Shown here piece by piece: positions 18,521 to 35,449 of a DNA stretch of 64,000 nt. The DNA is from a virus. The notes below the pieces were generated by a model that ran no database searches, was not told the DNA's origin, and saw only the letters and a list, made by a program, of their open reading frames with translations. Location of the stretch: IMG/VR virus record IMGVR_UViG_3300025645_000065; one strand, 5' to 3'. How positions within the stretch are numbered: the stretch's first letter is position 1; the number at the start of each line of letters is the position of its first letter. The translations under genes and the position numbers were made by a program.

Positions 18521-18910
18521 TTATCCATACACTACGTCATTCATTACTAAAACTTGGAACACCACGTCAGCGTCATTAGCATCGTAGTCTCCGTTAAGTA
18601 CATTATCCAATGCCCACTGATGGTCTTTTGGGAAGTTCTCTAGCGTCTTTCTTACTGATTGGTAGGTAAGTGTACCTAGCGTCTCTTCCTCGTCCTCAGC
18701 GTCCAATATGGTTACTGATGACTCCTCGTTGTTATACAAAGCATCTGCTATCCTAATAGACTTAGGTCTAGGGTCATCTGCATACTTCTTTATGAACCCT
18801 GTTGAAGTGTCGAGGTCAAGCATATACCAATAGTTGCTACCACCCTCTAATGCGGTTACTATCAAATTCTCGAATGAATCGTAATCCATCTCTCTTTTTA
18901 TTGTTATCAT
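18521..18910 (-). CDS. Hypothetical protein
   Basis: 129 aa ORF. Confidence 0.3.
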   Translation of the reverse strand: MITIKREMDYDSFENLIVTALEGGSNYWYMLDLDTSTGFIKKYADDPRPKSIRIADALYNNEESSVTILDAEDEEETLGTLTYQSVRKTLENFPKDHQWALDNVLNGDYDANDADVVFQVLVMNDVVYG

Positions 18911-18922
18911 TTTAATATATAT

Positions 18923-18940
18923 TATACCTAAAGATACGAA
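18923..18940 (-). promoter_or_regulatory. Motif-1 (minus strand TTCGTATCTTTAGGTATA) after a terminator-like hairpin. Putative promoter.
   Basis: One of at least 14 copies of this motif. Confidence 0.4.
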
Positions 18941-18971
18941 CTAAATAGTTCCGGAACAAGCCTTTTCTTTT

Positions 18972-19475
18972 TTATTTTACCTTATATGCTGACCAAACCT
19001 CTCTATTTAACCTCCTATCATCCTCTCGATTTCCTATAATCTTACCATCTATTAAAGCGAAGGCGTGAGCATTTACCACTACAATATAACTCCCTTGATT
19101 GAATTCCTTTACGAACTCCTTAACCTGATAGCGGACCTGAACTGTCTGACGTCTGATAGTATACTTCTGCTTAGCATTACTCCACTTCTCTACCTTGGTC
19201 TTCTTAGCCCGTGTAAGTCTCCCTCCCCTACCCATCTTACTAATCCTTTTACCGAATGCCTGAGTAACCTTCCCCAGATATCTATTAGCGTAAGTGCCTT
19301 GACCGCTCACTCGATTCAATTTAGTCTCACAGAAGTGATGAGCATCTACATAATCAACCCCAAAGGCATGCTGAACTGCTCTCACTACACAATCGTTATT
19401 CTCACTCTTACTTAGAGTATCTGTAGCAGCTTGTTTACTCCCTAGCTCCTTAATTAAATCCTTCGCCTTACTCAT
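18972..19475 (-). CDS. Hypothetical basic protein
   Basis: 167 aa ORF. Confidence 0.3.
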   Translation of the reverse strand: MSKAKDLIKELGSKQAATDTLSKSENNDCVVRAVQHAFGVDYVDAHHFCETKLNRVSGQGTYANRYLGKVTQAFGKRISKMGRGGRLTRAKKTKVEKWSNAKQKYTIRRQTVQVRYQVKEFVKEFNQGSYIVVVNAHAFALIDGKIIGNREDDRRLNREVWSAYKVK

Positions 19476-19738
19476 AGCTGTATAAAACGCTCTTCCTTTG
19501 GACTACCTGTAGCGGTGACTAGGAACTTACTGCCGGATCCATCCTCAAATCTGATACTATCAACCTTGATTAGGTACTTTATCTCAATTAACTCCTTAGC
19601 TAATCTTAAATGTGTTTCTTGCATTATTGTCATAACTCTTATTCTTTCTATCTTATACCTAAAGATACGAACTCCTGAGTTAGCAAGCAAGCCTTTTCTT
19701 ATGTATTTCCGGAATATCCTATAGGCGTTTTCTACCAA
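19472..19738 (-). CDS. Hypothetical small protein
   Basis: 88 aa ORF. Confidence 0.2.
   Translation of the reverse strand: MVENAYRIFRKYIRKGLLANSGVRIFRYKIERIRVMTIMQETHLRLAKELIEIKYLIKVDSIRFEDGSGSKFLVTATGSPKEERFIQL
19654..19671 (-). promoter_or_regulatory. Motif-1 copy
   Basis: tatacctaaagatacgaa. Confidence 0.4.
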
Positions 19739-20049
19739 CTCCTCACTTTCCCCCCACCTCCAACAGCGAGCTCCCTATGTTAAACAGTGTTCACTTGCCT
19801 GGTTCCCCACAGTCTACCTTAAAATATCCTATAGGCGTTTTGTAGTCAAACCCTATTCTCCCTATGTAGAACACGGTTCCTTACTTTTGCAAGCCCACTC
19901 CCCCGGTAAATGGCATATAAAACTACTGCTAGAAGGTAAAGGCAAACAACAAACCGGATAGTAAACCCCAGCATCACCCCATTAATAAAGACTCTCATAT
20001 GATATAAATTGTTCTATATAAGAGAAATGGCCGGATGACGGCTACTGCC

Positions 20050-20086
20050 GTAAGATATCGTAAGATCCTACCAAATCTTGTAAGAT
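20050..20086. promoter_or_regulatory. Iteron-like GTAAGAT x3 at 10- and 20-bp spacing, inside a 1-kb non-coding region
   Basis: Copies at 20050-56, 20060-66 and 20080-86. The spacing keeps them on the same face of the helix. Confidence 0.35.
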
Positions 20087-20609
20087 TCACCTAATCCCTA
20101 TAGTAAGTGATCGAATCGACCGTATCCCCCTGTCTCAAAGGGTTTTAAAGGGGTCTCCCTATTTTCTCCGGAAAGATGTATCAACGAGGCAGGCCCGAGC
20201 CTAAACACGTCTAATCCTTCCATATGTACCATCTCTATTTACTTCACACACCATCCTATCTTCTCTCTATTATTCTACAGTACTTCTCCTCTATTTCTAC
20301 ACTTCCAGTATTACTTCCTACTCCTACCATGTTCTATTTTATTATATTATCATACAGTTTCTTATTACTTTCTATATAGTATTGTTTTATAATACTAATT
20401 CTATAATTCCTCTTACTTGTATGCTTTTATAATACTTCTCTATTGTTTATACTGTTTAATCGTTAGGATCTGTTGTTCCATTACCTTGTTCTTATTCTTC
20501 TTTACTTTCTTCTTTTTATTATCTATATTATCCTTATACGTCTTCTTATTAATAGTATTCTGAATAATGGTATTGGTACTCCGGTTCACTTTCCGGTTCT
20601 TATTTTTAG

Positions 20610-20747
20610 TGTCAAGGACAGGATTCGAACCTGTAAATTATTAAGTGCTTCATTCTATAGATCAGCTCACCATTACGTTTAGCTTAAGGATTTAATCACT
20701 ATAGAGAACTGCACAGGTTTTAGCGTCTGCCATTCCGCCACCTTGAC
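20610..20747 (-). ncRNA. tRNA-scaffold element, 138 nt. Acceptor variant GTCAAGG/CCTTGAC with a Leu-like D arm and canonical T arm.
   Basis: 5' GTCAAGGTGGCGGAATGGCAGACGC ... ACAGGTTCGAATCCTGTCCTTGACA 3' with an ~88-nt core. The downstream flank is conserved with the copy at 23790. Confidence 0.35.
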
Positions 20748-20801
20748 ATTTTGCGTTCTATTGAAAAAGGAAGTTAGTGCGCCTATACCTGATGTCTTTA
20801 A

Positions 20802-21023
20802 CTACTCATAAGTTTCTTTGTAATAATCTACTGCACTTCCGTTGCACCCTTGATTAAACTCCCCTTGATAGTAGGCTTCTATCTTCTGTTGCTTATCTAT
20901 TTCTTTTGCTTGTACAGTAAGTTTATCTAACATTGACCATTCCACCTCGCAGTACGACGGGTTTCCGTAGGTTTCTAATTGTTTTTTCAACCAATCAATC
21001 GATGTTTGTTGTTTATTCCCCAT
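20802..21023 (-). CDS. Small protein of the MSNKKQTAVEW...QYYKETYE family
   Basis: Starts MGNKQQTSIDW and ends AVDYYKETYE. Start moved to the internal Met that is conserved across the family. Confidence 0.35.
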   Translation of the reverse strand: MGNKQQTSIDWLKKQLETYGNPSYCEVEWSMLDKLTVQAKEIDKQQKIEAYYQGEFNQGCNGSAVDYYKETYE

Positions 21024-21243
21024 AAGTTTCTTTGTAGTATTGTTCTGCGGTTCTTCTTGGCTCAATGTTAATGTGATATTCATATTCATCATCAGCACCA
21101 TTTTTAAACGCTTCAATTTTCTGCTGCTTGTCCATTTCTTTAGCATCTTTATACGCTTGCAGCATATCATTACCGATAAAGTACTGCATCCTTTCAAGTT
21201 CACTAAAGAACCACTCTACTGCCGTTTGTTTTTTATTGCTCAT
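21013..21243 (-). CDS. Small protein of the MSNKKQTAVEW...QYYKETYE family
   Basis: Starts MSNKKQTAVEWFF and ends EQYYKETYGE. Confidence 0.35.
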   Translation of the reverse strand: MSNKKQTAVEWFFSELERMQYFIGNDMLQAYKDAKEMDKQQKIEAFKNGADDEYEYHINIEPRRTAEQYYKETYGE

Positions 21244-21427
21244 ATCCTTTAATTTTATTAAATCTCTCATCGATGCATTGTCTTTGATACTCAAGATGCA
21301 ATACTTCTGAATGTTGTTTGATTAATAGGTACGCATTATCTAATAATTCTTTTTCTTGTTCTGTTCTCACTCCTGTGTTCATGATGCATAGTGCATCAAT
21401 AAGTGAGAGTTGTTGTTTATTGCTCAT
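21233..21427 (-). CDS. Small protein with the MSNKQQ leader
   Basis: Starts MSNKQQLSLIDAL. Confidence 0.3.
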   Translation of the reverse strand: MSNKQQLSLIDALCIMNTGVRTEQEKELLDNAYLLIKQHSEVLHLEYQRQCIDERFNKIKGYEQ

Positions 21428-21782
21428 AAGTTTCTTTATAGTATTGTTCAGCACTTCTGTTGCACCCTTGATTGAACTCTCCTTGATTATAGGCATCTAT
21501 CTTCTGCGATTCCCAAGGTGCTTTTACGTAATGTTCAACACAATCCTTTAATTCACTTCTACCCCATTCACCTTTGTATGGAAACCAAAGCCTATTTATA
21601 GCATCCCATAAATCGTTTCCAGTTTCCCACTCACCAAAACACATTATAGTTGTACTACCATCTTCATCGTAAAAAGTTGTATAATCACTACTATGGTTAT
21701 GGTGGCAATAAAGTGTTTTGGTTTCTGTACTTGCATAAGCACCTTCTACACTATATGTTGTTTTTACTTTTGTGTGGCTCAT
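21417..21782 (-). CDS. Hypothetical protein with the family C-terminus (NQGCNRSAEQYYKETYEQ)
   Basis: 121 aa ORF. Confidence 0.3.
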   Translation of the reverse strand: MSHTKVKTTYSVEGAYASTETKTLYCHHNHSSDYTTFYDEDGSTTIMCFGEWETGNDLWDAINRLWFPYKGEWGRSELKDCVEHYVKAPWESQKIDAYNQGEFNQGCNRSAEQYYKETYEQ

Positions 21783-22233
21783 AAATTTTTCGTTTTAATA
21801 CCGCCCAGCATATAACAAGCGGTATAGTTAATAAAGGCTGAATTAAGTTTATTTCTTCGATTTGTCGGTAGTAGTCAGCCTTTACTAAACCATACCGCCA
21901 ACCGTTATGGAACAGATTGCTATAACTTTTTTCCACATTTTTTGCATATTCTAAAACCATTCTCATAAGTGATTTACCAATTACATCCCAATTACTCTTG
22001 AAAAATTCTTCACCTTCTGGTGAATTGTTCCAAAACATAAAACCATCAGTCTTTTCAATCTCTTTCATTCTATTAACAGATTTTTCAACAGTAATTTCAT
22101 CGGTTCGTAATTCCAAACAAACATCTTTACCAATTTGAATAACTCCGTTACTATCTTTATAGGTATATCCAATCCTACCCACTGGTAAACCACAAAAAAC
22201 TAAGTTCTTAAAATAAATTTCTCTTGTTGTCAT
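21751..22233 (-). CDS. Hypothetical protein
   Basis: 160 aa ORF. Confidence 0.3.
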   Translation of the reverse strand: MTTREIYFKNLVFCGLPVGRIGYTYKDSNGVIQIGKDVCLELRTDEITVEKSVNRMKEIEKTDGFMFWNNSPEGEEFFKSNWDVIGKSLMRMVLEYAKNVEKSYSNLFHNGWRYGLVKADYYRQIEEINLIQPLLTIPLVICWAVLKRKIYEPHKSKNNI

Positions 22234-22293
22234 AATATTTTTTTCAAAGGTATAAAAATTAATTTACATACACATAACAAAGTGTAAAAAACG

Positions 22294-22617
22294 TTATAAG
22301 CCATTTTGTGACCTAACCTTACGACCAAGTTTTCTATGAATAAAAATACCTAATCTTTCAGGACAAGGAATAGCGATTACACCACGTAAATATGGAAGTA
22401 AAAAAGTAATTCCAATTCCCCAATGTGTATCAATATTGAATGACAACTCAAATTGAAAAGTGTCTAACGACCAAAATGTAAAAAATAACCAACGGAAAGT
22501 AAATCCGCTTGTATTGTGTTCATTTGCTTTTTTAATAGTAATTACAGGTACTAATGGAAATATATTCCTATTGTACCATTTCTCTTTTAGGTAATACCCT
22601 GATGCTGTTTGTGACAT
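22294..22617 (-). CDS. Hypothetical membrane protein
   Basis: 107 aa with hydrophobic segments. Confidence 0.25.
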   Translation of the reverse strand: MSQTASGYYLKEKWYNRNIFPLVPVITIKKANEHNTSGFTFRWLFFTFWSLDTFQFELSFNIDTHWGIGITFLLPYLRGVIAIPCPERLGIFIHRKLGRKVRSQNGL

Positions 22618-23024
22618 TGTTTTTAAATTAAATTGCTATACCAAACCACTAAAAAACGGCTTATAACAGTGGTTTGGCAAAATACCGCCACAAGCCTTTG
22701 TACTATAATTTAACATTCTGCAAGGCGGTACTTCGCCAAGCCGCATCACGTTAGTTGCAATTTGCCCAATCACACACAAACGAACTCGGTATTCTAATAA
22801 ATATTTCGGTTTCGGTAAGTTTTGCACACTTAAACCTTTGAATGGTGCTTGATATTGCCACCCACATAAAAACTGCAACTAACATCGCATATACGACAAT
22901 AGCGGCATTCTCTTTAAATCTAAACTTTTTCATTCTATTTTATTTTTGTTGTTAATTAAACTTTTGCCTTTCAATCCGCTACTGCGTATATGCGTAGCCG
23001 TTAGCAGAAATAATTTTATCCTGC

Positions 23025-23225
23025 CTACGCTCTCCGAACATTATCCCAATTTTCAAGGAATGATACTATCGAACCATATTCACACCATCCGCCACCATTG
23101 GTATCTTCAATTTGAATATACTGGTCGGTTTTGTGGTGAATTATCAATGTGTATTCGCTGTTTGTTTTGTAACCACAAGAGTTATCTAAACCCTTGAAAA
23201 TTGCTTTTACTTTTACTGTTCTCAT
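23025..23225 (-). CDS. Hypothetical small protein
   Basis: 66 aa ORF. Confidence 0.2.
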   Translation of the reverse strand: MRTVKVKAIFKGLDNSCGYKTNSEYTLIIHHKTDQYIQIEDTNGGGWCEYGSIVSFLENWDNVRRA

Positions 23226-23319
23226 TTTGATTTTATTTTAGATTTGTGAAAGCCCAGCCACTAACAGCGGTTTGGCGGCATTAAAACGACCACCAAGCCG
23301 CATCACGTTATAAGCCATT

Positions 23320-23697
23320 TTAGGAGAACGCCAACTTAACAAGTCTATCCTCTTGACTTTGGTATTCTTCTTTCTCTTCAATTTTAGCAATCCAACGAGA
23401 AACATAGCCACCGTCAGTCCAACTTCCACAATCAGTTTCAAAATGAATATCTGTATGGTCATTGTATCTGTATTCTCCACCTTTGTAACCATAGAACGTT
23501 TCCGTATAAGCAAGTTCTATGTTTGCTAAAATTTCTTCTTTTGTCATTGGTTGTTCAAGCATTTTAAATGCTACCTCTGCATATACACCTCTCCAAGAAA
23601 AAGGTTGAGAAATACCAAAGTCAAATTTTGTTCCGTTAGGGAAACTTTCAATGTGTTGTTTAAAATCTTTAAGTTCCATTGTTTTTAAATGTTTCAT
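23320..23697 (-). CDS. Hypothetical protein
   Basis: 125 aa ORF, preceded by motif-2. Confidence 0.3.
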   Translation of the reverse strand: MKHLKTMELKDFKQHIESFPNGTKFDFGISQPFSWRGVYAEVAFKMLEQPMTKEEILANIELAYTETFYGYKGGEYRYNDHTDIHFETDCGSWTDGGYVSRWIAKIEEKEEYQSQEDRLVKLAFS

Positions 23698-23734
23698 CGT
23701 TTAAATATTTTTATTTCTTATTTCCTTATTACTC

Positions 23735-23769
23735 CGTAAATATACGAACAAGGGATTGGGGAACCAACC
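23735..23769 (-). promoter_or_regulatory. Motif-2 (minus strand GGTTGGTTCCCCAATCCCTTGTTCGTATATTTACGG) upstream of 23320..23697
   Basis: One of six copies with a conserved GGGGAACCAAC-like box 8-12 bp upstream of TTCGTATATTTACGG. Confidence 0.4.
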
Positions 23770-23789
23770 AAAGTCGCATTTATTTTTAG

Positions 23790-23948
23790 TGTCAAGGACA
23801 GGATTCGAACCTGTACGATTAGAGTTTTTGCACTTGTTAGTACTATCTTTTAAGCTATCAGCGATATCACCTACACACCTATCTAATCTATAAAACCTAC
23901 TAGCGTCTACCACGTCAGGGGACACCCCTAACCTTCCGCCACCTTGAC
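23790..23948 (-). ncRNA. tRNA-scaffold element, 159 nt (GTCAAGG acceptor variant) with an extra hairpin inserted in the D loop
   Basis: 5' GTCAAGGTGGCGGAAGGTTAGGGGTGTCCCCTGACGTGGTAGACGC ... ACAGGTTCGAATCCTGTCCTTGACA 3'. Confidence 0.3.
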
Positions 23949-24002
23949 ATTTTGCGTTCTATTGAAAAAGGAAGTTAGTGCGCCTATACCTTTTACCTTT
24001 AA

Positions 24003-24212
24003 CTACTCATAGGTTTCTTTATAGTATTGTTCTGCATCTTTATAAGAACCCCAGTCTGAGCAGCCATAATTAACAGAATCAATTTTCTGCTGCTTGTCAA
24101 TTTCTTTGGCTTGGTCAAATATTCCTTCAAATAATACTTCTTGTTCATACGTTAACCCTATATTTATTCGTTCTCGTAACCATTCTACTGCCGTTTGTTT
24201 TTTATTGCTCAT
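24003..24212 (-). CDS. Small protein of the MSNKKQTAVEW...QYYKETYE family
   Basis: 69 aa ORF. Confidence 0.35.
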   Translation of the reverse strand: MSNKKQTAVEWLRERINIGLTYEQEVLFEGIFDQAKEIDKQQKIDSVNYGCSDWGSYKDAEQYYKETYE

Positions 24213-24387
24213 CTTCTATCCGTTGTATTGCTGTTTTTAAGCCTTGTTTAAATCCTCTGTTAAAATAGTCTGCGTTTGCTTTGACTTGCATTGCTTTTGC
24301 TTGGTTAAATATATCTTTCATACTTAAATTAGGTTTTAGCATTTCACTTTCTAACCATTCAACTGCCGTTTGTTTTTTATTGCTCAT
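24202..24387 (-). CDS. Small protein with the MSNKKQTAVEW leader
   Basis: 61 aa ORF. Confidence 0.3.
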   Translation of the reverse strand: MSNKKQTAVEWLESEMLKPNLSMKDIFNQAKAMQVKANADYFNRGFKQGLKTAIQRIEDEQ

Positions 24388-24610
24388 AAGTTTCTATTTC
24401 TTGTTTAACTTCTTGCCAATAGTCATATAAATCATTTGTGTCCATAAATCCAACGTTTAATATTTCATCAACTGCAATCAATGCACATTGTTGAGCATTC
24501 CATAGTTGAATTTCATCGGAGTAAACAAATCCATCTTCAGTTGTTGCTTCGTTTGACGCAAAAACAAAACACATTTCTATTAACTCTTCTGCTTTTTCTT
24601 TTGGTGTCAT
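24377..24610 (-). CDS. Hypothetical small acidic protein
   Basis: 77 aa ORF. Confidence 0.3.
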   Translation of the reverse strand: MTPKEKAEELIEMCFVFASNEATTEDGFVYSDEIQLWNAQQCALIAVDEILNVGFMDTNDLYDYWQEVKQEIETYEQ

Positions 24611-24776
24611 AAATCTATCTGTTCATTAAGTGCCATTATAGCTTCATCAATAGAGCCTTGTTGCTATCCTGCGCACAACATCAAGCTGCTGAAAGTTTTT
24701 AAGACTTGTGTTCCTTCGAAAGTTTCCGATTGTGTTTCAATGGAGTAGGTGTCTCCGTAATGTGTAAGTGTTATTG

Positions 24777-25265
24777 TCATTTGTTTAGTATTTGTTGTGT
24801 TAATTTTAAATCGTTTTGGTTCTCAGGATGTTCAGCAAAACAATGTTCCCAATATTCTTGAACTGCTCGCTTGATAAATTCCACTTCTTCAATTGTGTAT
24901 GTTTTATCAAAGCCTCTGCTTTCTCCATTTGAACTTTTGAAGGTTAGTTCTTTGCCTTGTGAATCGTAGGTATATTCACAACAAGTTCCTTTTGAATTTT
25001 TATAGGTTAATAAATTACCATTTGAATCGTATGTATATTCACAACTATATCCATTTGAATGTTTGTAGGTTAATACCTTACCTTGTGAATCTCTTGTATA
25101 TTTATACCAAGTTCCATCTGAATTTTTATAGGTTAATAAATTACCATTAGAATCTCTGGTGTATTCACAACTATATCCATTTGAATCTTTGTAATACTTA
25201 TAAACTTTGATACCATTCTCATTGAATAGTTCTAAATTCTCTTCTGTTCCTTGTATGTTTTTCAT
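24777..25265 (-). CDS. YD/RHS-like repeat small protein (MKNIQGTEENLELFNENG leader family)
   Basis: 162 aa. Tandem ~21-aa repeats YKNSDG.S.EYTRDSNGK.LT carrying the Y.YD..G.L signature. Confidence 0.4.
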   Translation of the reverse strand: MKNIQGTEENLELFNENGIKVYKYYKDSNGYSCEYTRDSNGNLLTYKNSDGTWYKYTRDSQGKVLTYKHSNGYSCEYTYDSNGNLLTYKNSKGTCCEYTYDSQGKELTFKSSNGESRGFDKTYTIEEVEFIKRAVQEYWEHCFAEHPENQNDLKLTQQILNK

Positions 25266-25738
25266 TGTTTCTTTTTAAATTGTTCAAACCATTCTTGCTC
25301 TTGAATTTCATCACTAAAAGATAAATATTCTTTAAATTCTTTAAGAATTATCAACACCTCTTCAGGTGTGTAGGTTTTATCAAAGCCTCTGCTTACTCCT
25401 TTTGAATTTTTATAGGTTAGTTCCTTACCTTGTGAATCTCTTGTATATTCACAAGTAAATCCATTTGAATCTTTGAAGGTTAATACCTTACCATTTGAAT
25501 CGTACGTGCGTTCATACCAAGTTCCATATGAATCTTTGAAGGTTAATTCCTTACCATTTGAATCGTAGGTGTATTCATACCAATATCCATTTGAATTTTT
25601 ATAGCTTAACTCATTACCGTTTGAATCTCTTGTGTATTCATAGCTATATCCAAATGGATGTTTAAAATACTCATAAACTTGTTTACCATTATCATTGAAT
25701 AGCTCTAAGTTCTCTTCTGTTCCTTGTATGTTTTTCAT
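25262..25738 (-). CDS. YD/RHS-like repeat small protein
   Basis: 158 aa paralog ending WFEQFKKKQ. Confidence 0.4.
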   Translation of the reverse strand: MKNIQGTEENLELFNDNGKQVYEYFKHPFGYSYEYTRDSNGNELSYKNSNGYWYEYTYDSNGKELTFKDSYGTWYERTYDSNGKVLTFKDSNGFTCEYTRDSQGKELTYKNSKGVSRGFDKTYTPEEVLIILKEFKEYLSFSDEIQEQEWFEQFKKKQ

Positions 25739-25740
25739 TG

Positions 25741-26160
25741 TTATTTTTTTATCTTAAAGTTGCCTAATTTGGATACTAACTCCTCCATAGTGTACTCAGG
25801 TATATCAAAGCCTCTGCTTACTCCTTTTGAATTTTTAAAGGTTAGTTCATTGCCATTTGAATCTCTTGTATATTCATACCAAGTTCCTTTTGAATTTTTA
25901 TAGATTAACTCGTTACCCTTTAAATCGTAGGTGTATTCGTAACTAAATCCATTTGAATCTTTGAAGGTTAGTTCCTTACCGTTTGAATCGTATGTACATT
26001 CATAACTAAATCCATTTGAATTTTTGAAGGTTAATACCTTACCTTGTGAATCGTAAGTACATTCTTCACTATATTCATAAGCTTTAAAATACTCATAAAC
26101 TCTTATGCCATTCTCATTGAATAGCTCCAAATTCTCTTTTGTTCCTAATATGTTTTTCAT
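25741..26160 (-). CDS. YD/RHS-like repeat small protein
   Basis: 139 aa paralog ending SRGFDIPEYTMEELVSKLGNFKIKK. Confidence 0.4.
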   Translation of the reverse strand: MKNILGTKENLELFNENGIRVYEYFKAYEYSEECTYDSQGKVLTFKNSNGFSYECTYDSNGKELTFKDSNGFSYEYTYDLKGNELIYKNSKGTWYEYTRDSNGNELTFKNSKGVSRGFDIPEYTMEELVSKLGNFKIKK

Positions 26161-26162: not shown

Positions 26163-27011
26163 TTATTTCTTTTTAAATTGTTCAAACCATTGTTCTAAAT
26201 CTACTGTCACTAATGCTGATTGCAAGGCTTCTGAAATAATTAATTTAACTTCTTCCTCACTATACATTCTTTCTTGTTGCCATTCAGTACCTTCTTTAAA
26301 GTTTTGAATTTGTAATAGTTTACTATCTATCCATTGCTGTGTAGGAACTGGTATCATAGCTGTCTTCCTATTGTAATTAGCTTCGGCAGCTTCTTCAAGT
26401 GTTTCTTGTTTAGTTTCTTCTTTTGTCAGTTTAATTGCACAAGGTTCACATTGAACTGCTCTTTTATCTCCTGTAAATTCTATTTTACAAGTTACACAAG
26501 TACACCCATAATGACCCGGAGCATACCCACCAATTGGATATTTTTGTTTAGTTTTTTCTTTTGGAATGATAGTTTTGTGTCTTACTTTTGTATCAACTTC
26601 CCATTCAGATGGTAATAAAACCTCTTTCCATACTCCGTTGTTAGATAAGTATTCTTTCTCAACCTCAACCTCCTCACAACTTGGATTCTTAACAAACCAT
26701 TCTAAGAACTCATCATCAATAGCTTGTACACCATCTTTGATTAAATCTTGGTCTGTTGTTAGAATGATTTGTCTTGGTTTATTGTTACTTATTAAAGCCA
26801 TTGTGTTTTGCCATAACCAAACCCTACCATTATTATAAACCCAAATATTATTTTCAAATCCAGTAATTTCTTCATCAGATGTGATGTAGATGTGTTTTGC
26901 AATATTGGTTGGATGTTGAGAAGGAAATTCATCTAATTCTAATCTTCTTCTTAGATTATTAATCCATAACCTACTTGGTTTGTCTGTTGGAATTACGTGT
27001 ATATTTTTCAT
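26163..27011 (-). CDS. Hypothetical protein with a Cys-rich zinc-ribbon segment. Its C-terminus is shared with the gene at 41787..42500.
   Basis: 282 aa. Contains HYGCTCVTCKIEF...CEPC and a C-terminal EGTEWQQERMYSEE...WFEQFKKK module. Confidence 0.3.
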   Translation of the reverse strand: MKNIHVIPTDKPSRLWINNLRRRLELDEFPSQHPTNIAKHIYITSDEEITGFENNIWVYNNGRVWLWQNTMALISNNKPRQIILTTDQDLIKDGVQAIDDEFLEWFVKNPSCEEVEVEKEYLSNNGVWKEVLLPSEWEVDTKVRHKTIIPKEKTKQKYPIGGYAPGHYGCTCVTCKIEFTGDKRAVQCEPCAIKLTKEETKQETLEEAAEANYNRKTAMIPVPTQQWIDSKLLQIQNFKEGTEWQQERMYSEEEVKLIISEALQSALVTVDLEQWFEQFKKK

Positions 27012-27012
27012 A

Positions 27013-27372
27013 TTATTTTTTTATTTTAAAGTTTCCAATTTTGGATACTAACTCTTCCATAGTGTACTCAGGTATATCAAAGCCTCTGCTTTCTCCATTT
27101 GAATCTTTGTATGTTAATTCATTGCCATTTGAATCTCTTGTATATTCACAACTAAATCCATCTGAATTTTTGGAGGTTAATATCTTACCATTTGAATCTC
27201 TTGTAAATTCATAACTATATCCATCTGAATTTTTATAGGTTAATACCTTACCATTTGAATCTCTTGTATATTCACAACTAAATCCATTTGAATTTTTAAA
27301 ATACTCATAAACTCTTACACCCTCTTGATTGAATAGCTCTAATTTCTCTTCTGTTCCTAATATGTTTTTCAT
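27013..27372 (-). CDS. YD/RHS-like repeat small protein
   Basis: 119 aa paralog, preceded by motif-2. Confidence 0.4.
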   Translation of the reverse strand: MKNILGTEEKLELFNQEGVRVYEYFKNSNGFSCEYTRDSNGKVLTYKNSDGYSYEFTRDSNGKILTSKNSDGFSCEYTRDSNGNELTYKDSNGESRGFDIPEYTMEELVSKIGNFKIKK

Positions 27373-27388
27373 CTTATTTCTTATTACT

Positions 27389-27424
27389 CCGTAAATATAC
27401 GAACAGTATCTTGGGGAGCCAACA
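27389..27424 (-). promoter_or_regulatory. Motif-2 copy upstream of the YD-repeat gene 27013..27372
   Basis: ccgtaaatatacgaacagtatcttggggagccaac. Confidence 0.4.
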
Positions 27425-27430
27425 AAAATC

Positions 27431-27739
27431 TTATTTGTTTTTGTTAAACTCTTTCCAATTATTATAAGTCAAACCCCATTGTAGACTGAACCATTGCATT
27501 TCCTTCTCTGCTTGCTTAGCATACTTGTTTAAGTTTTTCATGAGGTATTTTTTACCCCATTTTTTAAACTCCTCACCTTGCTCAACCGTCATTGTGTACT
27601 TTTGAAACCAATTATCTACACCTACCACATCCTGATACGTAACATCATGACCAGCAATGATAAACATTTGATTGATTAAATCAATAACTGCCTTATCTTG
27701 CTTTTCCTCTCGACTTAATCGTTTACGTTTAACTTGCAT
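27431..27739 (-). CDS. Hypothetical protein
   Basis: 102 aa ORF. Confidence 0.3.
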   Translation of the reverse strand: MQVKRKRLSREEKQDKAVIDLINQMFIIAGHDVTYQDVVGVDNWFQKYTMTVEQGEEFKKWGKKYLMKNLNKYAKQAEKEMQWFSLQWGLTYNNWKEFNKNK

Positions 27740-28068
27740 AATTCGTAATTGCTATTTTCTGTCTTAAATATAATATAATTCTCTCGCTCTTCCACAATCT
27801 CTGTAATGGGGGTACATTGCCAAGTAAAGAATTGATTGAATGGAGACATAAGTAAACTCCTACCAATGGCAGGTTCATCATGTTTAGATTTAAAACGACC
27901 TTCATCGTTAAACTCAATCCACATTATCCTAGCTGATTCTTTTAGTAGATTATCTCGTTCACGAACCAATCTATATTTAGGTTCTTCTGTGTCTAAGTTT
28001 AATTCTAATTTCAACTCACCATCTAAACCTAATGTTACTGGTATTTTAGTTTGTTTTATCTTGCTCAT
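27715..28068 (-). CDS. Hypothetical protein
   Basis: 117 aa ORF. Confidence 0.3.
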   Translation of the reverse strand: MSKIKQTKIPVTLGLDGELKLELNLDTEEPKYRLVRERDNLLKESARIMWIEFNDEGRFKSKHDEPAIGRSLLMSPFNQFFTWQCTPITEIVEERENYIIFKTENSNYELCKLNVND

Positions 28069-28748
28069 ATAATTTCAAATACATTTCCATTACTGCTTAA
28101 TTTACCGAACTTACCATCAGTAACCACAGAACCATTTGAGAATATTGTATCTAGCTCTGGTATTGTTCTAGTACCAGCATTGATAATATCATTGTAATTA
28201 TGGATATGGCCAAACATCACAAATCCAGGATTTACTTCTATAACTCTATTCAATAATGATTTATCCCCACAATGCTCCATACTACCAACTCTATCATAAG
28301 ATAGATCTAACATACCTTTTGGAGGTCCGTGAACAACAATAATATCAACATCTTCATCTATAACATTTCTCCACATTCGTTCTAGTTTATTTCTATCCTT
28401 ATTGAACGACCATCCATATCCAAAAGTTGGGGTGTAGGGTGAACCAAAGATCTTTAAACCCTCTATTTGGATAGTTTCATTTTCAAGATAGTGAATACCA
28501 TGATCTTTAAAATCTGATTTAGTGACAAACCTTTTCTCAATACTAGTATCATGATTACCGGCTACAAATATTTTATGCTGTATAGGTAAATTAGCAAACC
28601 AATCAATAAATGCTCTAACTTCAGGTTCATTACTATAAGGGTCTCTTGGATTGCTACAATCACCACTAAAAATAACCATAGCAACACCTTCAGGTATTTC
28701 TAGTAAGTCATGGAAGGTGTGTGTATCGCTTATATGCCAGATTTTCAT
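28065..28748 (-). CDS. Calcineurin-like metallophosphoesterase
   Basis: 227 aa carrying the MPP motifs GDCSNPRD, GNHD and GHIH. Confidence 0.55.
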   Translation of the reverse strand: MKIWHISDTHTFHDLLEIPEGVAMVIFSGDCSNPRDPYSNEPEVRAFIDWFANLPIQHKIFVAGNHDTSIEKRFVTKSDFKDHGIHYLENETIQIEGLKIFGSPYTPTFGYGWSFNKDRNKLERMWRNVIDEDVDIIVVHGPPKGMLDLSYDRVGSMEHCGDKSLLNRVIEVNPGFVMFGHIHNYNDIINAGTRTIPELDTIFSNGSVVTDGKFGKLSSNGNVFEII

Positions 28749-29167
28749 TTTTTTATTTTAAAGTTACCTAATTTATTAACTAACTCCTCCATTGTGTACT
28801 CGGGTATATCAAAGCCTCTTGTTTCACCATTTGAATCTTTGAATGTTAATTCATTACCTTGTGAATCCCTTGTGTATTCATAACTATATCCATCTGAATT
28901 TTTGTAGTTTAATATATTACCTTTTGAATCGTAAGTGTATTCATAACTATATCCATCTGAATTTTTGAAGGTTAGTACTTTACCATTTGAATCTCTTGTA
29001 TATTCACAACTAAATCCATCTGAATTTTTATAGGTTAGTACATTACCATTTAAATCGTATGTGTAGTCATAACTTACTCCAGATAAATGTTTAAAATACT
29101 CATAAACTTTTATACCCTCTTTAGTAAATAATTCTAATTTCTCTTCTGTTCCTTGTATGTTTTTCAT
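28745..29167 (-). CDS. YD/RHS-like repeat small protein
   Basis: 140 aa paralog. Confidence 0.4.
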   Translation of the reverse strand: MKNIQGTEEKLELFTKEGIKVYEYFKHLSGVSYDYTYDLNGNVLTYKNSDGFSCEYTRDSNGKVLTFKNSDGYSYEYTYDSKGNILNYKNSDGYSYEYTRDSQGNELTFKDSNGETRGFDIPEYTMEELVNKLGNFKIKK

Positions 29168-29168
29168 A

Positions 29169-29528
29169 TTATTTTTTTATTTTAAAATTACCTAATTTAT
29201 TAACTAATTCTTCCATAGTGTACTCAGGTATATCAAAGCCTCTGCTTACACCATCTGAATTTTTGAAGGTTAATTCATTGCCATTTAAATCGTATGTAGC
29301 TTCATAACTAAATCCATCTGAATTTTTATAGGTTAATACCTTACCATTTGAATCTCTTGTAAATTCATAACTATATCCATCTGAATTTTTATAGGTTAAT
29401 ACCTTACCATTTGAATCTCTTGCAAATTCATAACTATATCCATATGAATCTTTGTAATACTCATAAACTCTAATACCATTCTTATTGAATAGGTTTAATT
29501 TGTCTTCTGTTCCTAATATGTTTTTCAT
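29169..29528 (-). CDS. YD/RHS-like repeat small protein
   Basis: 119 aa paralog. Confidence 0.4.
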   Translation of the reverse strand: MKNILGTEDKLNLFNKNGIRVYEYYKDSYGYSYEFARDSNGKVLTYKNSDGYSYEFTRDSNGKVLTYKNSDGFSYEATYDLNGNELTFKNSDGVSRGFDIPEYTMEELVNKLGNFKIKK

Positions 29529-31802: not shown

Positions 31803-32548
31803 TATTTTACTTCTTGGTTGTTAAACATTCTTAATAACTCTAAAGAGCTCATTTGTGAAGCTACTGCATCAAACTTCTTATGAACATACTCTTGGTCTAT
31901 TTCATACCCTACTCTAAATGAAACCCAAGAACCAATTTTGAATCCAACTAGTACTATTGGAAAAGAAGTATAGTTGCTTCTATTTCTATCATAATCAGTT
32001 CCAACACTAACCTCCGCATTTGGAAATAATGTTCTGTACTTATCAACTGTATAATCTAAGATCCCTTTCTGCTTATTAGCAGCAATAAAGTCATACTCTG
32101 CTCTACTATTAAAGGTCTTTAATTTAGCGTAAAGCGTAGCTGGGTTATACGATCTATACTGGTCAGTTATACTTGAACATTCTAATCTATTGATATCTCT
32201 TGAAACTGGTGAGTGTCTCTCCACTATCTTATTACTGGAGTCATCGTATACTTGAGAAATAAGCTTACATCCTCCGCTGTTCTGAGTATAGGTTATCTCA
32301 ACTGTAACTTCATCATCTCCGTATCCGAAAGTCCTCTCTCCAGTAATTGTCTCTACCTTGAAATTATTTACATAATCGATTCCTCTTTGAAACCCTCCCT
32401 GTATAAGCAACTCCTCTATCCTAGCTTGTGATTCACTATTTGAAAGAGCGGTTGCTTTGCTATTCTTTACAAAGCGATCAACTCTATCTTGTTGCTCTAC
32501 AGTTAACATTCCAAAATCTAATTCTAATTGTTTTACTTGGTTCATCAT
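31802..32548 (-). CDS. Hypothetical protein
   Basis: 248 aa ORF. Confidence 0.3.
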   Translation of the reverse strand: MMNQVKQLELDFGMLTVEQQDRVDRFVKNSKATALSNSESQARIEELLIQGGFQRGIDYVNNFKVETITGERTFGYGDDEVTVEITYTQNSGGCKLISQVYDDSSNKIVERHSPVSRDINRLECSSITDQYRSYNPATLYAKLKTFNSRAEYDFIAANKQKGILDYTVDKYRTLFPNAEVSVGTDYDRNRSNYTSFPIVLVGFKIGSWVSFRVGYEIDQEYVHKKFDAVASQMSSLELLRMFNNQEVK

Positions 32549-32569
32549 AACTTTTATTTCTTATTATCT

Positions 32570-32587
32570 TATACCTAAAGATACGAA
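32570..32587 (-). promoter_or_regulatory. Motif-1 copy
   Basis: tatacctaaagatacgaa. Confidence 0.4.
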
Positions 32588-32786
32588 CTATCTCCGTACC
32601 AGGCAAGCCTTTTTTTATTTTTTTCTTCCTACGTACCCCGCTACTATAAGGACCCATACCAGAGGCCAGGCACCGATCATCTTAAAACGATCTCCGTTGC
32701 TAAAAGCATCTCCTTTTCCGAAGATACGATCTAATGCGTCCATGATGAAGGAAAAGACTGTTCCTATTACGAAATATATTAATACG

Positions 32787-34505: not shown

Positions 34506-34522
34506 GCTTTTTTTTCAATTTG

Positions 34523-34595
34523 TAGTCAGGACAGGTCTCGAACCTATACTCTTCTGTACCAAAAACAGACGTGTTGCCAATTACACCACCTGACT
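34523..34595 (-). tRNA. tRNA-Gln(UUG), canonical 73-nt cloverleaf
   Basis: Hand fold: acceptor AGTCAGG/CCTGACT, D stem GTGT/ACAC, anticodon stem TCTGT/ACAGA, loop TTTTGGT, T loop TTCGAGA, A73. Confidence 0.6.
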
Positions 34596-34707
34596 AAATT
34601 ATTAATATAAAAGTAATAAGCTAAGGATTTTCACCTCCGAAGTCTCTTTATTAGATTGTTCCTTATCTAGCGAGTGCAATCGCGTATTACGACACTTATT
34701 ACTTCTG

Positions 34708-34819
34708 TAGTCAGGACAGGATTCGAACCTGTATTTGTATATGTTTGTGACCTCGACTGCCGTTGTATCCTCAAACTAAATCACCTGCCGATGTGCGTCT
34801 ACCATTCCGCCACCTGACT
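34708..34819 (-). ncRNA. tRNA-scaffold element B, 112 nt
   Basis: 5' AGTCAGGTGGCGGAATGGTAGACGC plus a 62-nt divergent core plus ACAGGTTCGAATCCTGTCCTGACTA 3'. Confidence 0.35.
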
Positions 34820-34925
34820 ATATTAAATGGGTAACCTCAACCAGTTTATGGTTATGCGTTATGACAATCATCTCGTGAATGTCATAGATAGACCCCATAT
34901 GCTATCTATTAGTTATTACCATTTG

Positions 34926-35010
34926 TAGTCAGGACAGGATTCGAACCTGTATTGTTGTTACATCACTCACATTCATTAGTGAGTAGCGTCTACCATTCCG
35001 CCACCTGGCT
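34926..35010 (-). tRNA. tRNA-like (type-II length, 85 nt) on the shared scaffold. The anticodon loop is non-canonical and may be 8 nt.
   Basis: Same acceptor/D/T arms. Candidate anticodon stem CTCAC/GTGAG with loop TAATGAAT. Confidence 0.35.
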
Positions 35011-35071
35011 ATATTCTAATTCTATGCTCTCCGCCCTAACACGGCTATGAATTAGTAACAGTCCCTTTTTG

Positions 35072-35212: not shown

Positions 35213-35293
35213 AAATGGTGGAGCGTCACTTATTTCTAAGTTATCCACCTCAGTTACATTATCTCACGATAAGAGGCTTTACTGAGCCCAAGG

Positions 35294-35400: not shown

Positions 35401-35449
35401 ATTTTAATTTTATTACCAACATGTCAATGAACTCTTATTCTTTCTATCT

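What the first reader, a model, noticed from the sequence alone, without database searches (positions are those of the whole stretch)
20610..23948. Two outlying scaffold copies with conserved downstream flanks bracket a 3-kb block of small-protein genes
The elements at 20610-20747 and 23790-23948 share the scaffold with acceptor variant GTCAAGG/CCTTGAC. They also share about 10 nt beyond the 3' end (tatttttagt) and about 45 nt beyond the 5' end (ttttgcgttctattgaaaaaggaagttagtgcgcctatacc). After that shared flank each runs into a gene of the MSNKKQTAVEW...QYYKETYE family. This reads as a segmental duplication of a tRNA-like element plus the start of a small gene. The second copy carries an extra GGGGTGTCCCC hairpin inside its D loop. 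That again shows this scaffold tolerates insertions. The two elements are in direct orientation around about 3 kb of small ORFs.
Basis: seen in the sequence. Interest (0 to 1): 0.55.

Follow-up and report, generated by a model that had tools for sequence, protein, structure and literature searches.

The report
Swappable tRNA-shaped RNA cassettes in phage
The two look-alike elements are two copies of a portable phage gene cassette, a conserved control box followed by a tRNA-shaped RNA whose middle part is a different, exchangeable insert in each copy, and related phages carry the same cassette frame with many other inserts.

Summary
Elements A (20610-20747) and B (23790-23948), both on the minus strand, share a tRNA(Leu)-like frame, a 41-nt upstream box, a 10-nt trailer and the tail of a paralogous small gene.

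It is not a plain segmental duplication. The two 88-nt inserts ("cargos") that replace the anticodon and variable arms are unrelated.

- **Upstream box:** it recurs before many different transcription units in about 20 other phage contigs, so it is most likely a promoter.
- **D-loop hairpin of B:** it is a recurrent scaffold subtype with compensatory changes.
- **Same frame, other cargos:** population variants of this phage and an unrelated small Flavobacterium-type phage carry the same frame with other cargos (X, Y, Z, W and a mini cargo), and carry cargo A or B in other contexts.
- **The interval between A and B is itself polymorphic:** six orphan genes are replaced by 0.7 kb in one variant, and there is no B or block between the family genes in another. 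The right-hand junction lies in the small-gene family, not in the tRNA-like copies.

Across about 3 Mb of related contigs I found about 180 such RNAs with long cargos, falling into about 148 families. They show acceptor-stem covariation, A73 and U48.

RNA-level function, processing and possible leucylation are inferred, not shown.

No description of this class turned up in the seven full-text searches I ran.

The parts
20610..20747 (-). Element A, a tRNA(Leu)-like scaffold RNA of 138 nt. Sub-parts: 5' acceptor 20741-20747; U8 G9 20739-20740; D arm 20723-20738; cargo A 20635-20722 (88 nt); T arm 20618-20634; 3' acceptor 20611-20617; discriminator A at 20610.
   Evidence: Rfam tRNA 35.1 bits, with an 82-nt insertion in place of the anticodon arm. 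The MFE is a four-way cloverleaf, z = -1.95. Cargo A is 100% identical in L139 and L003. The A junction is confirmed in an independent assembly, L289, at 99.9%.
20749..20789 (-). Conserved 41-nt box upstream of A, most likely a promoter. It has two conserved blocks, GGTATAGGCGCACTAACTTCC and ATAGAACGC, around a T-rich spacer.
   Evidence: Two copies in the window against 0 expected. About 20 further copies occur in other IMG/VR phage contigs, ahead of scaffold RNAs, other short RNAs with terminators, and a gene start. Islands of 95-100% identity lie in contigs that are otherwise unalignable with the window.
23790..23948 (-). Element B, a scaffold RNA of 159 nt. Sub-parts: 5' acceptor 23942-23948; D arm with inserted hairpin 23903-23939 (hairpin 23914-23932); cargo B 23815-23902 (88 nt); T arm 23798-23814; 3' acceptor 23791-23797; discriminator A at 23790.
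   Evidence: The MFE is a cloverleaf with an extra D-loop hairpin, z = -3.09. It is identical in L256-L263 and has 2 substitutions in L287. The D-loop hairpin subtype recurs in at least 15 contigs.
23950..23990 (-). Conserved 41-nt box upstream of B, identical to the copy before A.
23713..23789 (-). Downstream flank of B. It holds the trailer CTAAAAATAA and a terminator-like hairpin GGTTGGTTCCCCAATC at 23754-23769. It travels with the cassette.
   Evidence: It is identical in L286, where a different D-loop insert and a different cargo (Z) occupy the frame.
20600..20609 (-). 10-nt trailer CTAAAAATAA after A, shared with B (23780-23789).
   Evidence: repeat D7, 100%. Trailers of the wider family start with CAAA or CTAA, and no CCA is encoded.
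20802..21023 (-). 73-aa gene of the MGNKQQ/MSNKKQ...YYKETYE family. Its stop lies 12 nt before the box of A.
   Evidence: The identical protein is followed by box + cargo Y in L266 and by box + X + B in L263.
24003..24212 (-). 69-aa gene of the same family. Its stop lies 12 nt before the box of B.
   Evidence: The order is the same in L256-L262 and L287.
21507..23693 (-). Polymorphic core of the interval. It holds five orphan genes (23320-23697, 23025-23225, 22751-22933, 22294-22617, 21751-22233) and the non-family N-terminal part of ORF 21417-21782.
   Evidence: In L287 it is replaced by 685 nt with other genes, and L287 has the same flanks as the window on both sides. It is present unchanged in L257. 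There are no informative Pfam or PHROG hits.
21013..21506 (-). Family-gene segment before A. It comprises the family-type C-terminal tail of the fusion ORF 21417-21782, the 64-aa gene 21233-21427 and the 76-aa gene 21013-21243.
   Evidence: The tail of the 121-aa ORF equals the tail of an intact 73-aa family gene in L287.

Best explanation
A and B are two independent copies of a modular phage cassette. Each cassette consists of:
1. a conserved 41-nt box that most likely acts as a phage-specific promoter;
2. a tRNA(Leu)-derived RNA frame, namely a 7-bp acceptor stem, a class-II-type D arm, a T arm and discriminator A73;
3. a cassette-specific structured insert ('cargo', 88 nt in both) that takes the place of the anticodon and variable arms;
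4. a short trailer, which for B includes a terminator-like hairpin.

The flanks are identical because they are the conserved parts of the cassette. Those parts are shared with many related phages and even with an unrelated small Flavobacterium-type phage. They are not the remains of one recent duplication of a whole element.

**Shown:**
- the anatomy of the cassette;
- the wide recurrence of the box and the frame;
- covariation in the acceptor stem;
- conservation of tertiary-contact positions;
- cargo replacement between identical flanks;
- free reassortment of upstream context, cargo and downstream context among population variants;
- polymorphism of the gene block between A and B.

**Inferred:**
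- The RNA is transcribed from the box.
- Its 5' leader is cut by RNase P (U at -1).
- Its 3' end is trimmed and CCA is added.
- The result is a stable L-shaped RNA that displays the cargo, which is the functional, partner-binding part.
- It might be charged by LeuRS, since Leu identity does not need an anticodon.
- At the DNA level, the conserved halves serve as portable homology for homologous recombination. This swaps cargos and shuffles neighbouring accessory genes.
For: **Frame**
- Rfam tRNA hit with the anticodon arm replaced by an insertion; cloverleaf minimum-free-energy folds.
- The D arm equals that of canonical phage tRNA-Leu(UAA) genes in the same clusters.
- Among 224 frames in about 3 Mb of related contigs there are 45 distinct acceptor pairs, most of them fully complementary. 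The discriminator is A in 196 of 224.
- U8 is present in 175 of 178 long elements, and U48 (the last cargo base) in 166 of 178.
- T at -1 and C at 74 are the commonest flanking bases.

**Not decoding tRNAs**
- ARAGORN finds none.
- Short members have 4-nt loops.

**Box**
- It has two conserved blocks with a variable spacer of about 6-9 nt.
- It sits 2-6 nt before +1 of the scaffolds.
- It also precedes short RNA + terminator units and a gene start.

**Modularity**
- L286 has identical 5' and 3' flanks to B but a different D-loop insert and cargo.
- L295 carries X at the A locus. L263 has box-X-spacer-B. L266 has the same 73-aa gene and box followed by cargo Y.
- L285 and L288 carry further cargos.
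- The same cargos occur in both acceptor variants: L005/L010, and L002 and L132 versus the window.
- The same cargo occurs with or without the D-loop hairpin: L254/L079.

**Conservation**
- Cargo A is 100% identical in L139, whose terminase resembles those of 42-kb Flavobacterium phages, not the immuto-like phage of the window.
- Cargo diversity: 180 cargos fall into 148 families.
- There is one compensatory pair in a cargo helix of a 4-member family.

**Not a host tRNA**
- The 3' half occurs in only 18 contigs of metagenome-assembled genomes (MAGs) among 185,579 species genomes. More than half of these are labelled Bacteroidota, and none is an isolate.
Against: - There is no expression, end-mapping or aminoacylation data.
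- Cargos A and B have only identical or near-identical copies, so there is no covariation test for them.
- Fold z-scores are modest for A (-1.95).
- The box could be a transcribed leader. In 9 contigs it is preceded by TTAAATTATTTTTG, which matches the Bacteroidetes -7 promoter box TAnnTTTG.
- Some context switches (L003/L292, L290, and perhaps L286) could be assembly chimeras across the 150-180-nt shared module.
- The closest cultured relative, Flavobacterium phage immuto, has no such RNAs or box in the syntenic 50 kb, so the elements are dispensable for that lineage.
- No antisense target of any cargo exists in the window.
Confidence: 0.6

Rival explanations
1. This is a plain segmental duplication. 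One tRNA-like element plus the adjacent gene end was copied 3.2 kb away, and the interiors then diverged.
For: There are 57 identical nt upstream and 36 identical nt downstream. The post-stop sequence TATGAGTAGTTAAAG is found only at these two loci in the window. The gene tails are 80-90% identical.
Against: The cargos are no more similar than shuffles while the flanks are identical, which duplication plus drift cannot produce. The box and frame are shared with many other phages. Both loci carry other cargos between the same flanks in population variants. Gene-tail similarity is a property of the whole paralog family, with five copies of repeat D1.
Confidence: 0.12
2. This is a DNA- or transcript-level regulatory cassette only. 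The tRNA-like fold would serve merely as a processing or punctuation signal or a stabilising end for the neighbouring mRNAs, and as a recombination site. The insert would have no function of its own.
For: B lies 92 nt upstream of the next gene. The cassettes sit at the borders of a variable gene block. PeSL cassettes of T4-type phages work this way (PMC2839356). No target or partner of any cargo was found.
Against: Cargos are conserved to 97-100% between contigs that share no other alignable DNA. U48 is kept at the cargo's last base. There are compensatory changes in a cargo helix and in the D-loop hairpin. Many copies lie in dense RNA-only arrays with no adjacent mRNA.
Confidence: 0.17
3. These are interrupted or decayed tRNA-Leu genes. 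They would be either intron-containing genes spliced to a working tRNA, or pseudogenes hit by insertions.
For: The D arm, T arm and A73 are those of tRNA-Leu. Rfam scores them as tRNA. Insertions occur at two sites, the D loop and the anticodon region.
Against: No anticodon stem-loop is left on either side of the insert (alignments). ARAGORN finds no tRNA. Minimal members of 69-72 nt have 4-nt loops. No group I intron or other Rfam family is hit. Acceptor covariation and strict cargo conservation argue against pseudogenes.
Confidence: 0.06

Closest known systems
tmRNA (SsrA)
   Same: It has a tRNA-like acceptor and T-arm domain, with a large functional insert where the anticodon arm would be. 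It is processed like a tRNA and is found in phages too.
   Different: The elements here have no G3:U70 alanine identity (C3:G70 in A and B), and no tag ORF is called by ARAGORN. They are 70-190 nt rather than about 260-430 nt and keep a full D arm. tmRNA is one conserved family, whereas here there are more than 100 unrelated inserts.
Bacterial Y RNAs (YrlA), tRNA mimics bound by Ro60/Rsr (PMC4201824)
   Same: They are non-coding RNAs with D- and T-arm mimicry. They are substrates of tRNA enzymes, and one is cut by RNase P and receives CCA. They are also encoded by phages. The tRNA module is proposed to stabilise or recruit.
   Different: In YrlA the RNA ends form the Ro60-binding stem. Here the ends form the acceptor stem. 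No rsr gene was seen in the part of the window I checked, there is no Rfam Y-RNA hit, and the cargo is hypervariable.
Class II tRNA-Leu
   Same: The D arm GGCGRAAUUGGUAGACGC, A73, the A15:U48 pairing potential, G18G19, the TΨC loop and the 7-bp acceptor match.
   Different: There is no anticodon arm and no variable-arm hairpin, and lengths reach about 190 nt. tRNA finders do not detect the elements.
Promoter-early stem-loop cassettes (PeSLs) of T4-type phages (PMC2839356, PMC4122927)
   Same: They are short conserved regulatory cassettes that flank orphan genes in hyperplastic regions. They provide homology for modular shuffling between related phages.
   Different: A PeSL is a sigma70-type promoter plus a terminator hairpin. 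Here the structured part is a full tRNA-like RNA gene with its own variable insert. Mini-circles have not been shown here.
Phage T4 small RNAs RNAC and RNAD from the tRNA region (PMC3014915)
   Same: They are stable small RNAs of unknown role, encoded among phage tRNA genes.
   Different: T4 has two fixed species. I did not test sequence or structure relatedness, and my recollection that they have tRNA-like ends is from memory only.
Engineered 'tRNA scaffold' for recombinant RNA expression (Ponchon and Dardel, recalled from memory; use described in PMC3753655)
   Same: The design is the same: the RNA of interest is inserted in place of the anticodon arm, so the chimera is processed and protected like a tRNA.
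   Different: That scaffold is man-made. The elements here are natural, widespread and evolving by cassette exchange.

Membership tests
Canonical tRNA (class II, Leu) | 7-bp acceptor stem with a discriminator base | tested here: met
   GTCAAGG/CCTTGAC plus A in both elements. The wider set has 45 acceptor pair types, mostly complementary, and A73 in 196 of 224.
Canonical tRNA (class II, Leu) | D arm and T arm with the conserved elbow nucleotides (U8, A14, G18G19, T54-Psi55-C56, 15:48 pair) | tested here: met
   The sequence shows U8, GG in the D loop and a TTCGAAT loop. U48 is present in 166 of 178 elements. The D arm equals that of phage tRNA-Leu(UAA). In B the D loop carries an extra hairpin.
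Canonical tRNA (class II, Leu) | Anticodon stem with a 7-nt loop (U33, anticodon, purine 37) | tested here: not met
   The Rfam alignment deletes model positions 27-43 and inserts 82 nt. ARAGORN makes no call. Minimal relatives have 4-nt loops.
Canonical tRNA (class II, Leu) | Aminoacylation and use in translation | not testable with these tools
   Acylation assays or tRNA sequencing are needed.
tmRNA | G3:U70 alanine identity and a tag-peptide reading frame with a resume codon | tested here: not met
   Pair 3:70 is C:G. ARAGORN's tmRNA search finds nothing in the window. The only Rfam tmRNA match scores 12.6 bits and lies elsewhere.
Intron-containing tRNA gene (bacterial group I type) | Group I intron core inside an otherwise intact anticodon loop | tested here: not met
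   No Rfam intron family is hit at gathering threshold or at E<=5. The inserts are 20-130 nt, and no anticodon stem halves flank them.
Bacterial Y RNA (YrlA) | Ro60-binding stem formed by the RNA ends, encoded next to rsr | tested here: not met
   The ends form an acceptor stem. There is no Rfam Y-RNA hit. No Ro60-like protein is among the 30 window proteins I scanned. The scan of the window was not exhaustive.
Segmental duplication | Contiguous similarity through the whole repeated unit | tested here: not met
   The flanks are identical, but the 88-nt interiors are at shuffle level (z = 0.24).
PeSL-type mobile regulatory cassette | Conserved promoter-bearing cassette repeated at the borders of variable orphan genes | tested here: inconclusive
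   The box is conserved and placed like a promoter, and the block beside it is polymorphic. Promoter activity is untested, and the structured part is an RNA gene rather than a terminator.
PeSL-type mobile regulatory cassette | Indel or replacement junctions between relatives coincide with the cassettes | tested here: met
   For the cargo swaps, L286 versus the window breaks at GGCGGAA and at TACAGG, and L295 carries X at the A locus. For the gene block, only the left junction adjoins the cassette flank (23693). The right one lies in a family gene (21507).

The most novel reading that the evidence does not exclude
Phages of aquatic Bacteroidota carry a natural 'tRNA-scaffold display' system. 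One conserved tRNA(Leu)-shaped frame, with its own promoter box, presents well over a hundred unrelated structured RNA domains. The frame makes each RNA processable and stable, and possibly chargeable with leucine. At the DNA level it lets phages, including unrelated ones that share a host, trade these RNA domains and adjacent accessory genes by recombination within the frame. The cargos would then be a large, unexplored arsenal of host-manipulating or anti-defence RNAs.
Probability: 0.4. Interest if true: 0.85.

Novelty: new variant of a known kind. Interest (0 to 1): 0.7.

Why it matters
- **Annotation.** If the RNAs are made and stable, the 'odd tRNAs' or 'tRNA pseudogenes' of many environmental phage genomes are in fact a large family of non-decoding RNAs with exchangeable functional domains. 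That would be a natural counterpart of the engineered tRNA scaffold used in RNA biotechnology.
- **RNA discovery.** It opens a catalogue of more than 100 structured RNA domains of unknown function. These are under strong conservation and are horizontally shared between unrelated phages.
- **Genome evolution.** It adds an RNA-gene-based analogue to the PeSL mechanism of modular shuffling in phage genomes.
- **This window.** It explains why two distant loci share perfect flanks, and it shows that the interval between them is a population-level variable region.

Tried and rejected
- **GenBank phages, nucleotide searches.** No near or distant match for the region or for A with its flank; the RNA cluster gave only generic tRNA hits.
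- **Closest cultured relative.** Flavobacterium phage immuto (DNA polymerase 63% aa identity) is syntenic. It has no tRNAs, no box and no frame in 50 kb, so it gave no comparative help.
- **Rfam.** At gathering threshold and at E<=5 only tRNA matches appear. No known family fits the cargos.
- **Block and family proteins.** Pfam and PHROGs gave nothing informative.
- **The 267-aa neighbour.** No match to any solved structure.
- **Antisense targets.** Searching the window for targets of all nine cargos gave only chance-length matches of 11-13 nt.
- **Diverged homologues of cargo A or B.** None turned up in about 3 Mb of fetched loci. A 20-nt hit in L205 is not a scaffold.
- **Relatives spanning both flanks.** Protein-based locus searches gave only distant phages (<=46% identity) or short contigs.
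- **L003 as proof of recombination.** I first read it that way. I now treat L003, L292 and L290 as possibly chimeric assemblies across the shared module.
- **Purine-rich 850 nt downstream of A.** It is not significantly structured (z = -1.1).
- **Literature.** Seven full-text searches found no description of this RNA class.

Full report
**Setting**

All genes in the window run on the minus strand. The window encodes a family A DNA polymerase, GroEL, baseplate wedge proteins and glycosyltransferases. The polymerase is 63% identical to that of the 160-kb Flavobacterium myovirus vB_FspM_immuto, and gene order is syntenic. No GenBank phage matches at the nucleotide level. Contigs 99.9-100% identical to parts of the window occur in several JGI and ENA metagenome assemblies. 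The local arrangement around both elements is therefore independently confirmed. L256 and L257 cover B and the block, and L289 covers the 73-aa gene, the box, A and 1.2 kb downstream.

**The observation**

Read on the minus strand, A (20747 to 20610, 138 nt) and B (23948 to 23790, 159 nt) have the same parts:
- a 7-bp acceptor stem GUCAAGG/CCUUGAC and discriminator A;
- U8 G9;
- a D arm of the type GCGGAAUGG.AGACGC;
- a T arm ACAGG-UUCGAAU-CCUGU.

Rfam's tRNA model matches A at 35.1 bits, but only by deleting its anticodon arm and inserting 82 nt. B is not called, because its D loop holds an extra hairpin. Both fold into four-way cloverleaves as their minimum-free-energy and centroid structures, with z = -1.95 for A and -3.09 for B.

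- 36 nt are identical at the 3' side, including the 10-nt trailer CUAAAAAUAA.
- 103 nt are 90% identical at the 5' side, of which 57 are identical.
- The 41-nt core occurs twice in the window against none expected.

Two corrections are needed. The long flank is upstream of the RNA genes. It ends in the last codons and stop of a small gene, not in its start.

**Why this is not a simple duplication**

The 88-nt inserts that fill the place of the anticodon and variable arms are unrelated, with an alignment score at the shuffle mean (z = 0.24). Identical flanks around unrelated interiors call for a modular explanation.

*The upstream box.* An exact 17-mer scan of IMG/VR gave 29 loci. About 20 of them hold the full box, GGTATAGGCGCACTAACTTCC, then a T-rich spacer of about 6-9 nt, then (A/T)ATAGAACGC. 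What follows differs between loci:
- scaffold RNAs starting 2-6 nt later (L003, L131, L139, L144, L148, L153);
- a small leader hairpin GCUGGAAAGACAGC (L137, L141, L145);
- about 110-nt RNAs that end in a terminator (L127, L129, L136);
- a gene whose ATG lies 16 nt downstream (L128).

Against the window, these contigs align only over the box (95-100% identity) and over scaffold RNAs. Two conserved blocks, a spacer of variable length and a fixed short distance to whatever is expressed are the signature of a promoter. I rate that reading at about two in three. The alternative is a transcribed leader. In nine contigs the box is preceded by TTAAATTATTTTTG, which fits the Bacteroidetes -7 box TAnnTTTG. 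That consensus is from my own knowledge.

*The frame.* The window has eight more copies with acceptor AGUCAGG in an RNA-dense cluster at 34.7-36.9 kb. An unbiased pairing of D-arm and T-arm anchors over about 3 Mb of fetched phage contigs gave 224 distinct elements with at least 6 of 7 acceptor pairs.
- There are 45 different acceptor pairs, most of them fully complementary. Examples are CACGGAG/CTCCGTG, GGTGCAA/TTGCACC, AATGAAG/CTTCATT and TCAGGTG/CACCTGA. The stem therefore covaries.
- The discriminator is A in 196 of 224.
- In the 178 long elements, U8 is kept in 175. The base just before the T stem is U in 166, although it is the last base of a hypervariable insert. That fits an A15:U48 tertiary pair.
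- The base before +1 is usually U, which is the RNase P preference (from my own knowledge). Trailers start with CAAA or CUAA, with no encoded CCA.
- The D arm is that of canonical tRNA-Leu(UAA) genes found in the same phage clusters.
- The 3' half of the frame occurs in only 18 contigs among 185,579 species genomes. All are metagenome-assembled genomes (MAGs), more than half are labelled Bacteroidota, and none is an isolate. It is a phage lineage, not a host tRNA.

*These are not decoding tRNAs.* ARAGORN does not find them. Minimal members of 69-72 nt have 4-nt loops where an anticodon loop should be. No intron family is hit.

*The D-loop hairpin of B.* A scan for GGCGGAAGGTTAGGGG found the same hairpin in at least 15 further contigs, with many different acceptor stems and cargos.
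- L048 (GGUAGGGG/CCCUUGCC) carries a U-A to G-C exchange.
- L060 lacks one whole base pair.
- The same cargo occurs with the hairpin in L254 and without it in L079.

The hairpin is therefore a third exchangeable module. Other D-loop inserts of 17-60 nt also exist.

**Cassette exchange, seen directly**

The table lists the arrangements found (read 5' to 3' on the RNA strand).

| Contig(s) | Upstream context | Cargo | Downstream |
|---|---|---|---|
| window, L289 | 73-aa family gene + box | A | A's flank |
| L295 | family gene + box | X (75-nt tRNA-like) | A's flank |
| L263 | 73-aa gene tail + box | X, 27-nt spacer, then B without its own box | B's flank and the 125-aa gene |
| L266 | 73-aa gene (100% aa) + box | Y | another hairpin RNA |
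| window, L256-L262, L287 | 69-aa family gene + box | B | B's flank |
| L286 | small-phage context + box | Z, with a different D-loop insert | B's flank (75 nt identical) |
| L290, L003/L292 | small-phage context + box | A | A's flank |
| L139 | small-phage context + box | A (AGUCAGG frame) | structural genes |
| L285, L288 | small-phage context + box | W; a 20-nt mini cargo | other |

- In L286 the sequence is identical to the window from the box through GGCGGAA, and again from UACAGG through 75 nt downstream of B. Everything between differs. Cargo Z is related to the cargo of L107.
- Cargo A is 100% identical in L139. L139's terminase resembles those of 42-kb Flavobacterium phages, not immuto.
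- The window's cluster cargos c36008 and c36803 recur at 98% identity in GUCAAGG frames, in contigs with no other similarity to the window (L002 and L132).

Upstream context, cargo and downstream context thus reassort freely, and the breakpoints fall in the conserved parts of the cassette.

Several of these contigs are MEGAHIT k141 contigs. The conserved joints (57 and 36 nt) are shorter than k. Chimeric assembly is therefore unlikely for L263, L266 and L295; this is an inference from how de Bruijn assemblers work. It cannot be excluded for L003/L292, L290 and perhaps L286, where the shared module is 150-180 nt.

**The 3-kb interval**

L257 carries the same interval as the window (99.98% identity over 21135-25404).

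In L287 the stretch 23693 to 21507 is replaced by 685 nt that encode two other small proteins and the start of an intact 73-aa family gene. That stretch holds five orphan genes and the non-family N-terminal part of a sixth ORF.
- The left junction is at the end of B's downstream flank.
- The right junction is exactly where family-type sequence resumes.

The window's 121-aa ORF (21417-21782) is therefore a fusion of foreign sequence with a family gene tail.

In L266 a homologue of the 77-aa gene (24377-24610) is followed by an uninterrupted run of family genes that ends with the 73-aa gene and the box. There is no B and no block. One of those genes is a mosaic of the N-terminus of 24202-24387 and another member's tail.

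However, the mapped junctions lie in the small-gene family and beside the cassette, not between the two tRNA-like copies. The family genes share a conserved stop/start overlap (UAUGAGCAAUAAAAAACAA) and conserved ends. These evidently act as additional recombination sites.

**How it most likely works**

*Shown:* the cassette anatomy, its conservation, the stem covariation and the exchanges.

*Inferred, RNA level:* each cassette is a transcription unit. RNase P and 3' trimming with CCA addition produce a stable L-shaped RNA in which the cargo projects where the anticodon arm would be. The cargo is the functional, partner-specific part. Three results point that way:
- 180 cargos of at least 35 nt fall into 148 families.
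- Individual cargos are kept at 97-100% identity between unrelated phages.
- A four-member family shows one compensatory pair in its cargo helix.

A73 and a Leu-type D arm make charging by LeuRS conceivable, because Leu identity in bacteria does not depend on the anticodon (from my own knowledge). No antisense targets exist in the window, and host genomes could not be searched.

*Inferred, DNA level:* the invariant halves give 57 + 36 nt (or more) of portable homology. This would allow cargo replacement and the shuffling of adjacent accessory genes, in the manner of PeSL cassettes in T4-type phages (PMC2839356).

**Comparison with known systems and novelty**

The elements work like tRNA-mimic non-coding RNAs such as tmRNA and YrlA (PMC4201824), and like the engineered tRNA scaffold. 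They fail the defining tests of each:
- no anticodon arm, so not a tRNA;
- no G3:U70 pair or tag ORF, so not a tmRNA;
- the RNA ends sit in the acceptor stem rather than in a Ro60-binding stem, so not a YrlA.

T4's RNAC and RNAD are small RNAs of unknown role in a phage tRNA region (PMC3014915) and are a loose precedent.

Seven full-text searches found no description of a tRNA-shaped frame with exchangeable inserts in phages. That is absence in the searched library, not proof of absence. I class it as a new variant of a known kind (tRNA-mimic RNAs) with an unusual modular genetics. Function remains unproven, and the specific duplication claim is only partly right.

Noticed in passing
window 34500-37600 (-): This is an RNA-dense cluster. 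It holds seven AGTCAGG-type scaffold RNAs with unrelated cargos (34708-34819, 34926-35010, 35072-35212, 35294-35400, 35661-35760, 36008-36117, 36803-36911). There is also a variant without a D arm (35504-35580), canonical tRNAs (Gln, Met, Gly) and several odd elements that contain T arms. tRNA-Gln(UUG) at 34522-34595 uses the same acceptor stem as the scaffolds.
   Followed up: partly
window 20802-21506 and 24003-24610 (-): This is a family of small genes (MSNKKQTAVEW...YYKETYE/Q). The stop of one gene overlaps the start of the next (TATGAGCAATAAAAAACAA). Members are mosaics between population variants. ORF 21417-21782 is a fusion of foreign sequence with a family tail.
   Followed up: partly
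window 19740-20600 (-): About 850 nt downstream of A are purine-rich and have no convincing ORF. The stretch includes a direct repeat ACAAAACGCCTATAGGATATT (near 19715-19735 and 19825-19845). The part I folded (19740-20300) is not significantly structured (z = -1.1).
   Followed up: partly
window 22291-22307, 22736-22763, 23293-23321: GC-rich intergenic repeats lie between the orphan genes of the block (CCAAGCCGCATCACGTTA; ACGTTATAAGCCATTTT, which also occurs inverted at 22653-22667). They may be terminators or further shuffling sites.
   Followed up: no
L266 1245-1355; L002 2045-2150; L288 after 6610: Another conserved RNA-like element lies next to the cassettes. It is a long hairpin whose arms are GTATATGAGTAGTGGC... 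and ...GCCATTACTTATATAC.
   Followed up: no
L137, L141, L145, L114, L238; window about 35590-35610 (-): A small conserved leader hairpin, GCTGGAAAGACAGC with compensatory variants, sits between the box or a preceding tRNA-like gene and the next scaffold. It was seen within 40 nt upstream of 13 of 224 scaffolds.
   Followed up: no
window 35427, 36144, 37656 (-); diverged copies near 18918-18977, 19649-19708, 32518-32625, 37876-37953, 42685-42752, 60757-60852: This is a second repeated terminator/promoter-like unit (...AAGATAGAAAGAATAAGAGTTCATTGACATGTTGGTAATAAAATTAAAAT). Two copies (35427, 36144) abut AGTCAGG scaffolds, and one of the diverged copies ends about 8 nt before the start of ORF 18521-18910.
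   Followed up: no
window 24777-26160, 27000-29500, 41787-42500 (-): These are tandem and dispersed paralogs of a YD/RHS-repeat-like small protein, 75-88% identical to each other at the nucleotide level.
   Followed up: no
window 40632-41342 (-): This is a GTP cyclohydrolase I gene (Pfam PF01227, E = 6e-43). It suggests a 7-deazaguanine or queuosine-type pathway in this phage.
   Followed up: no
L003/L292 1606-1743: Cargo A is framed by a 5' AGTCAGG and a 3' CCTTGACA, a mixed acceptor with 6 pairs after a 1-nt shift. This is either a natural recombinant between the two frame types or an assembly chimera.
   Followed up: partly
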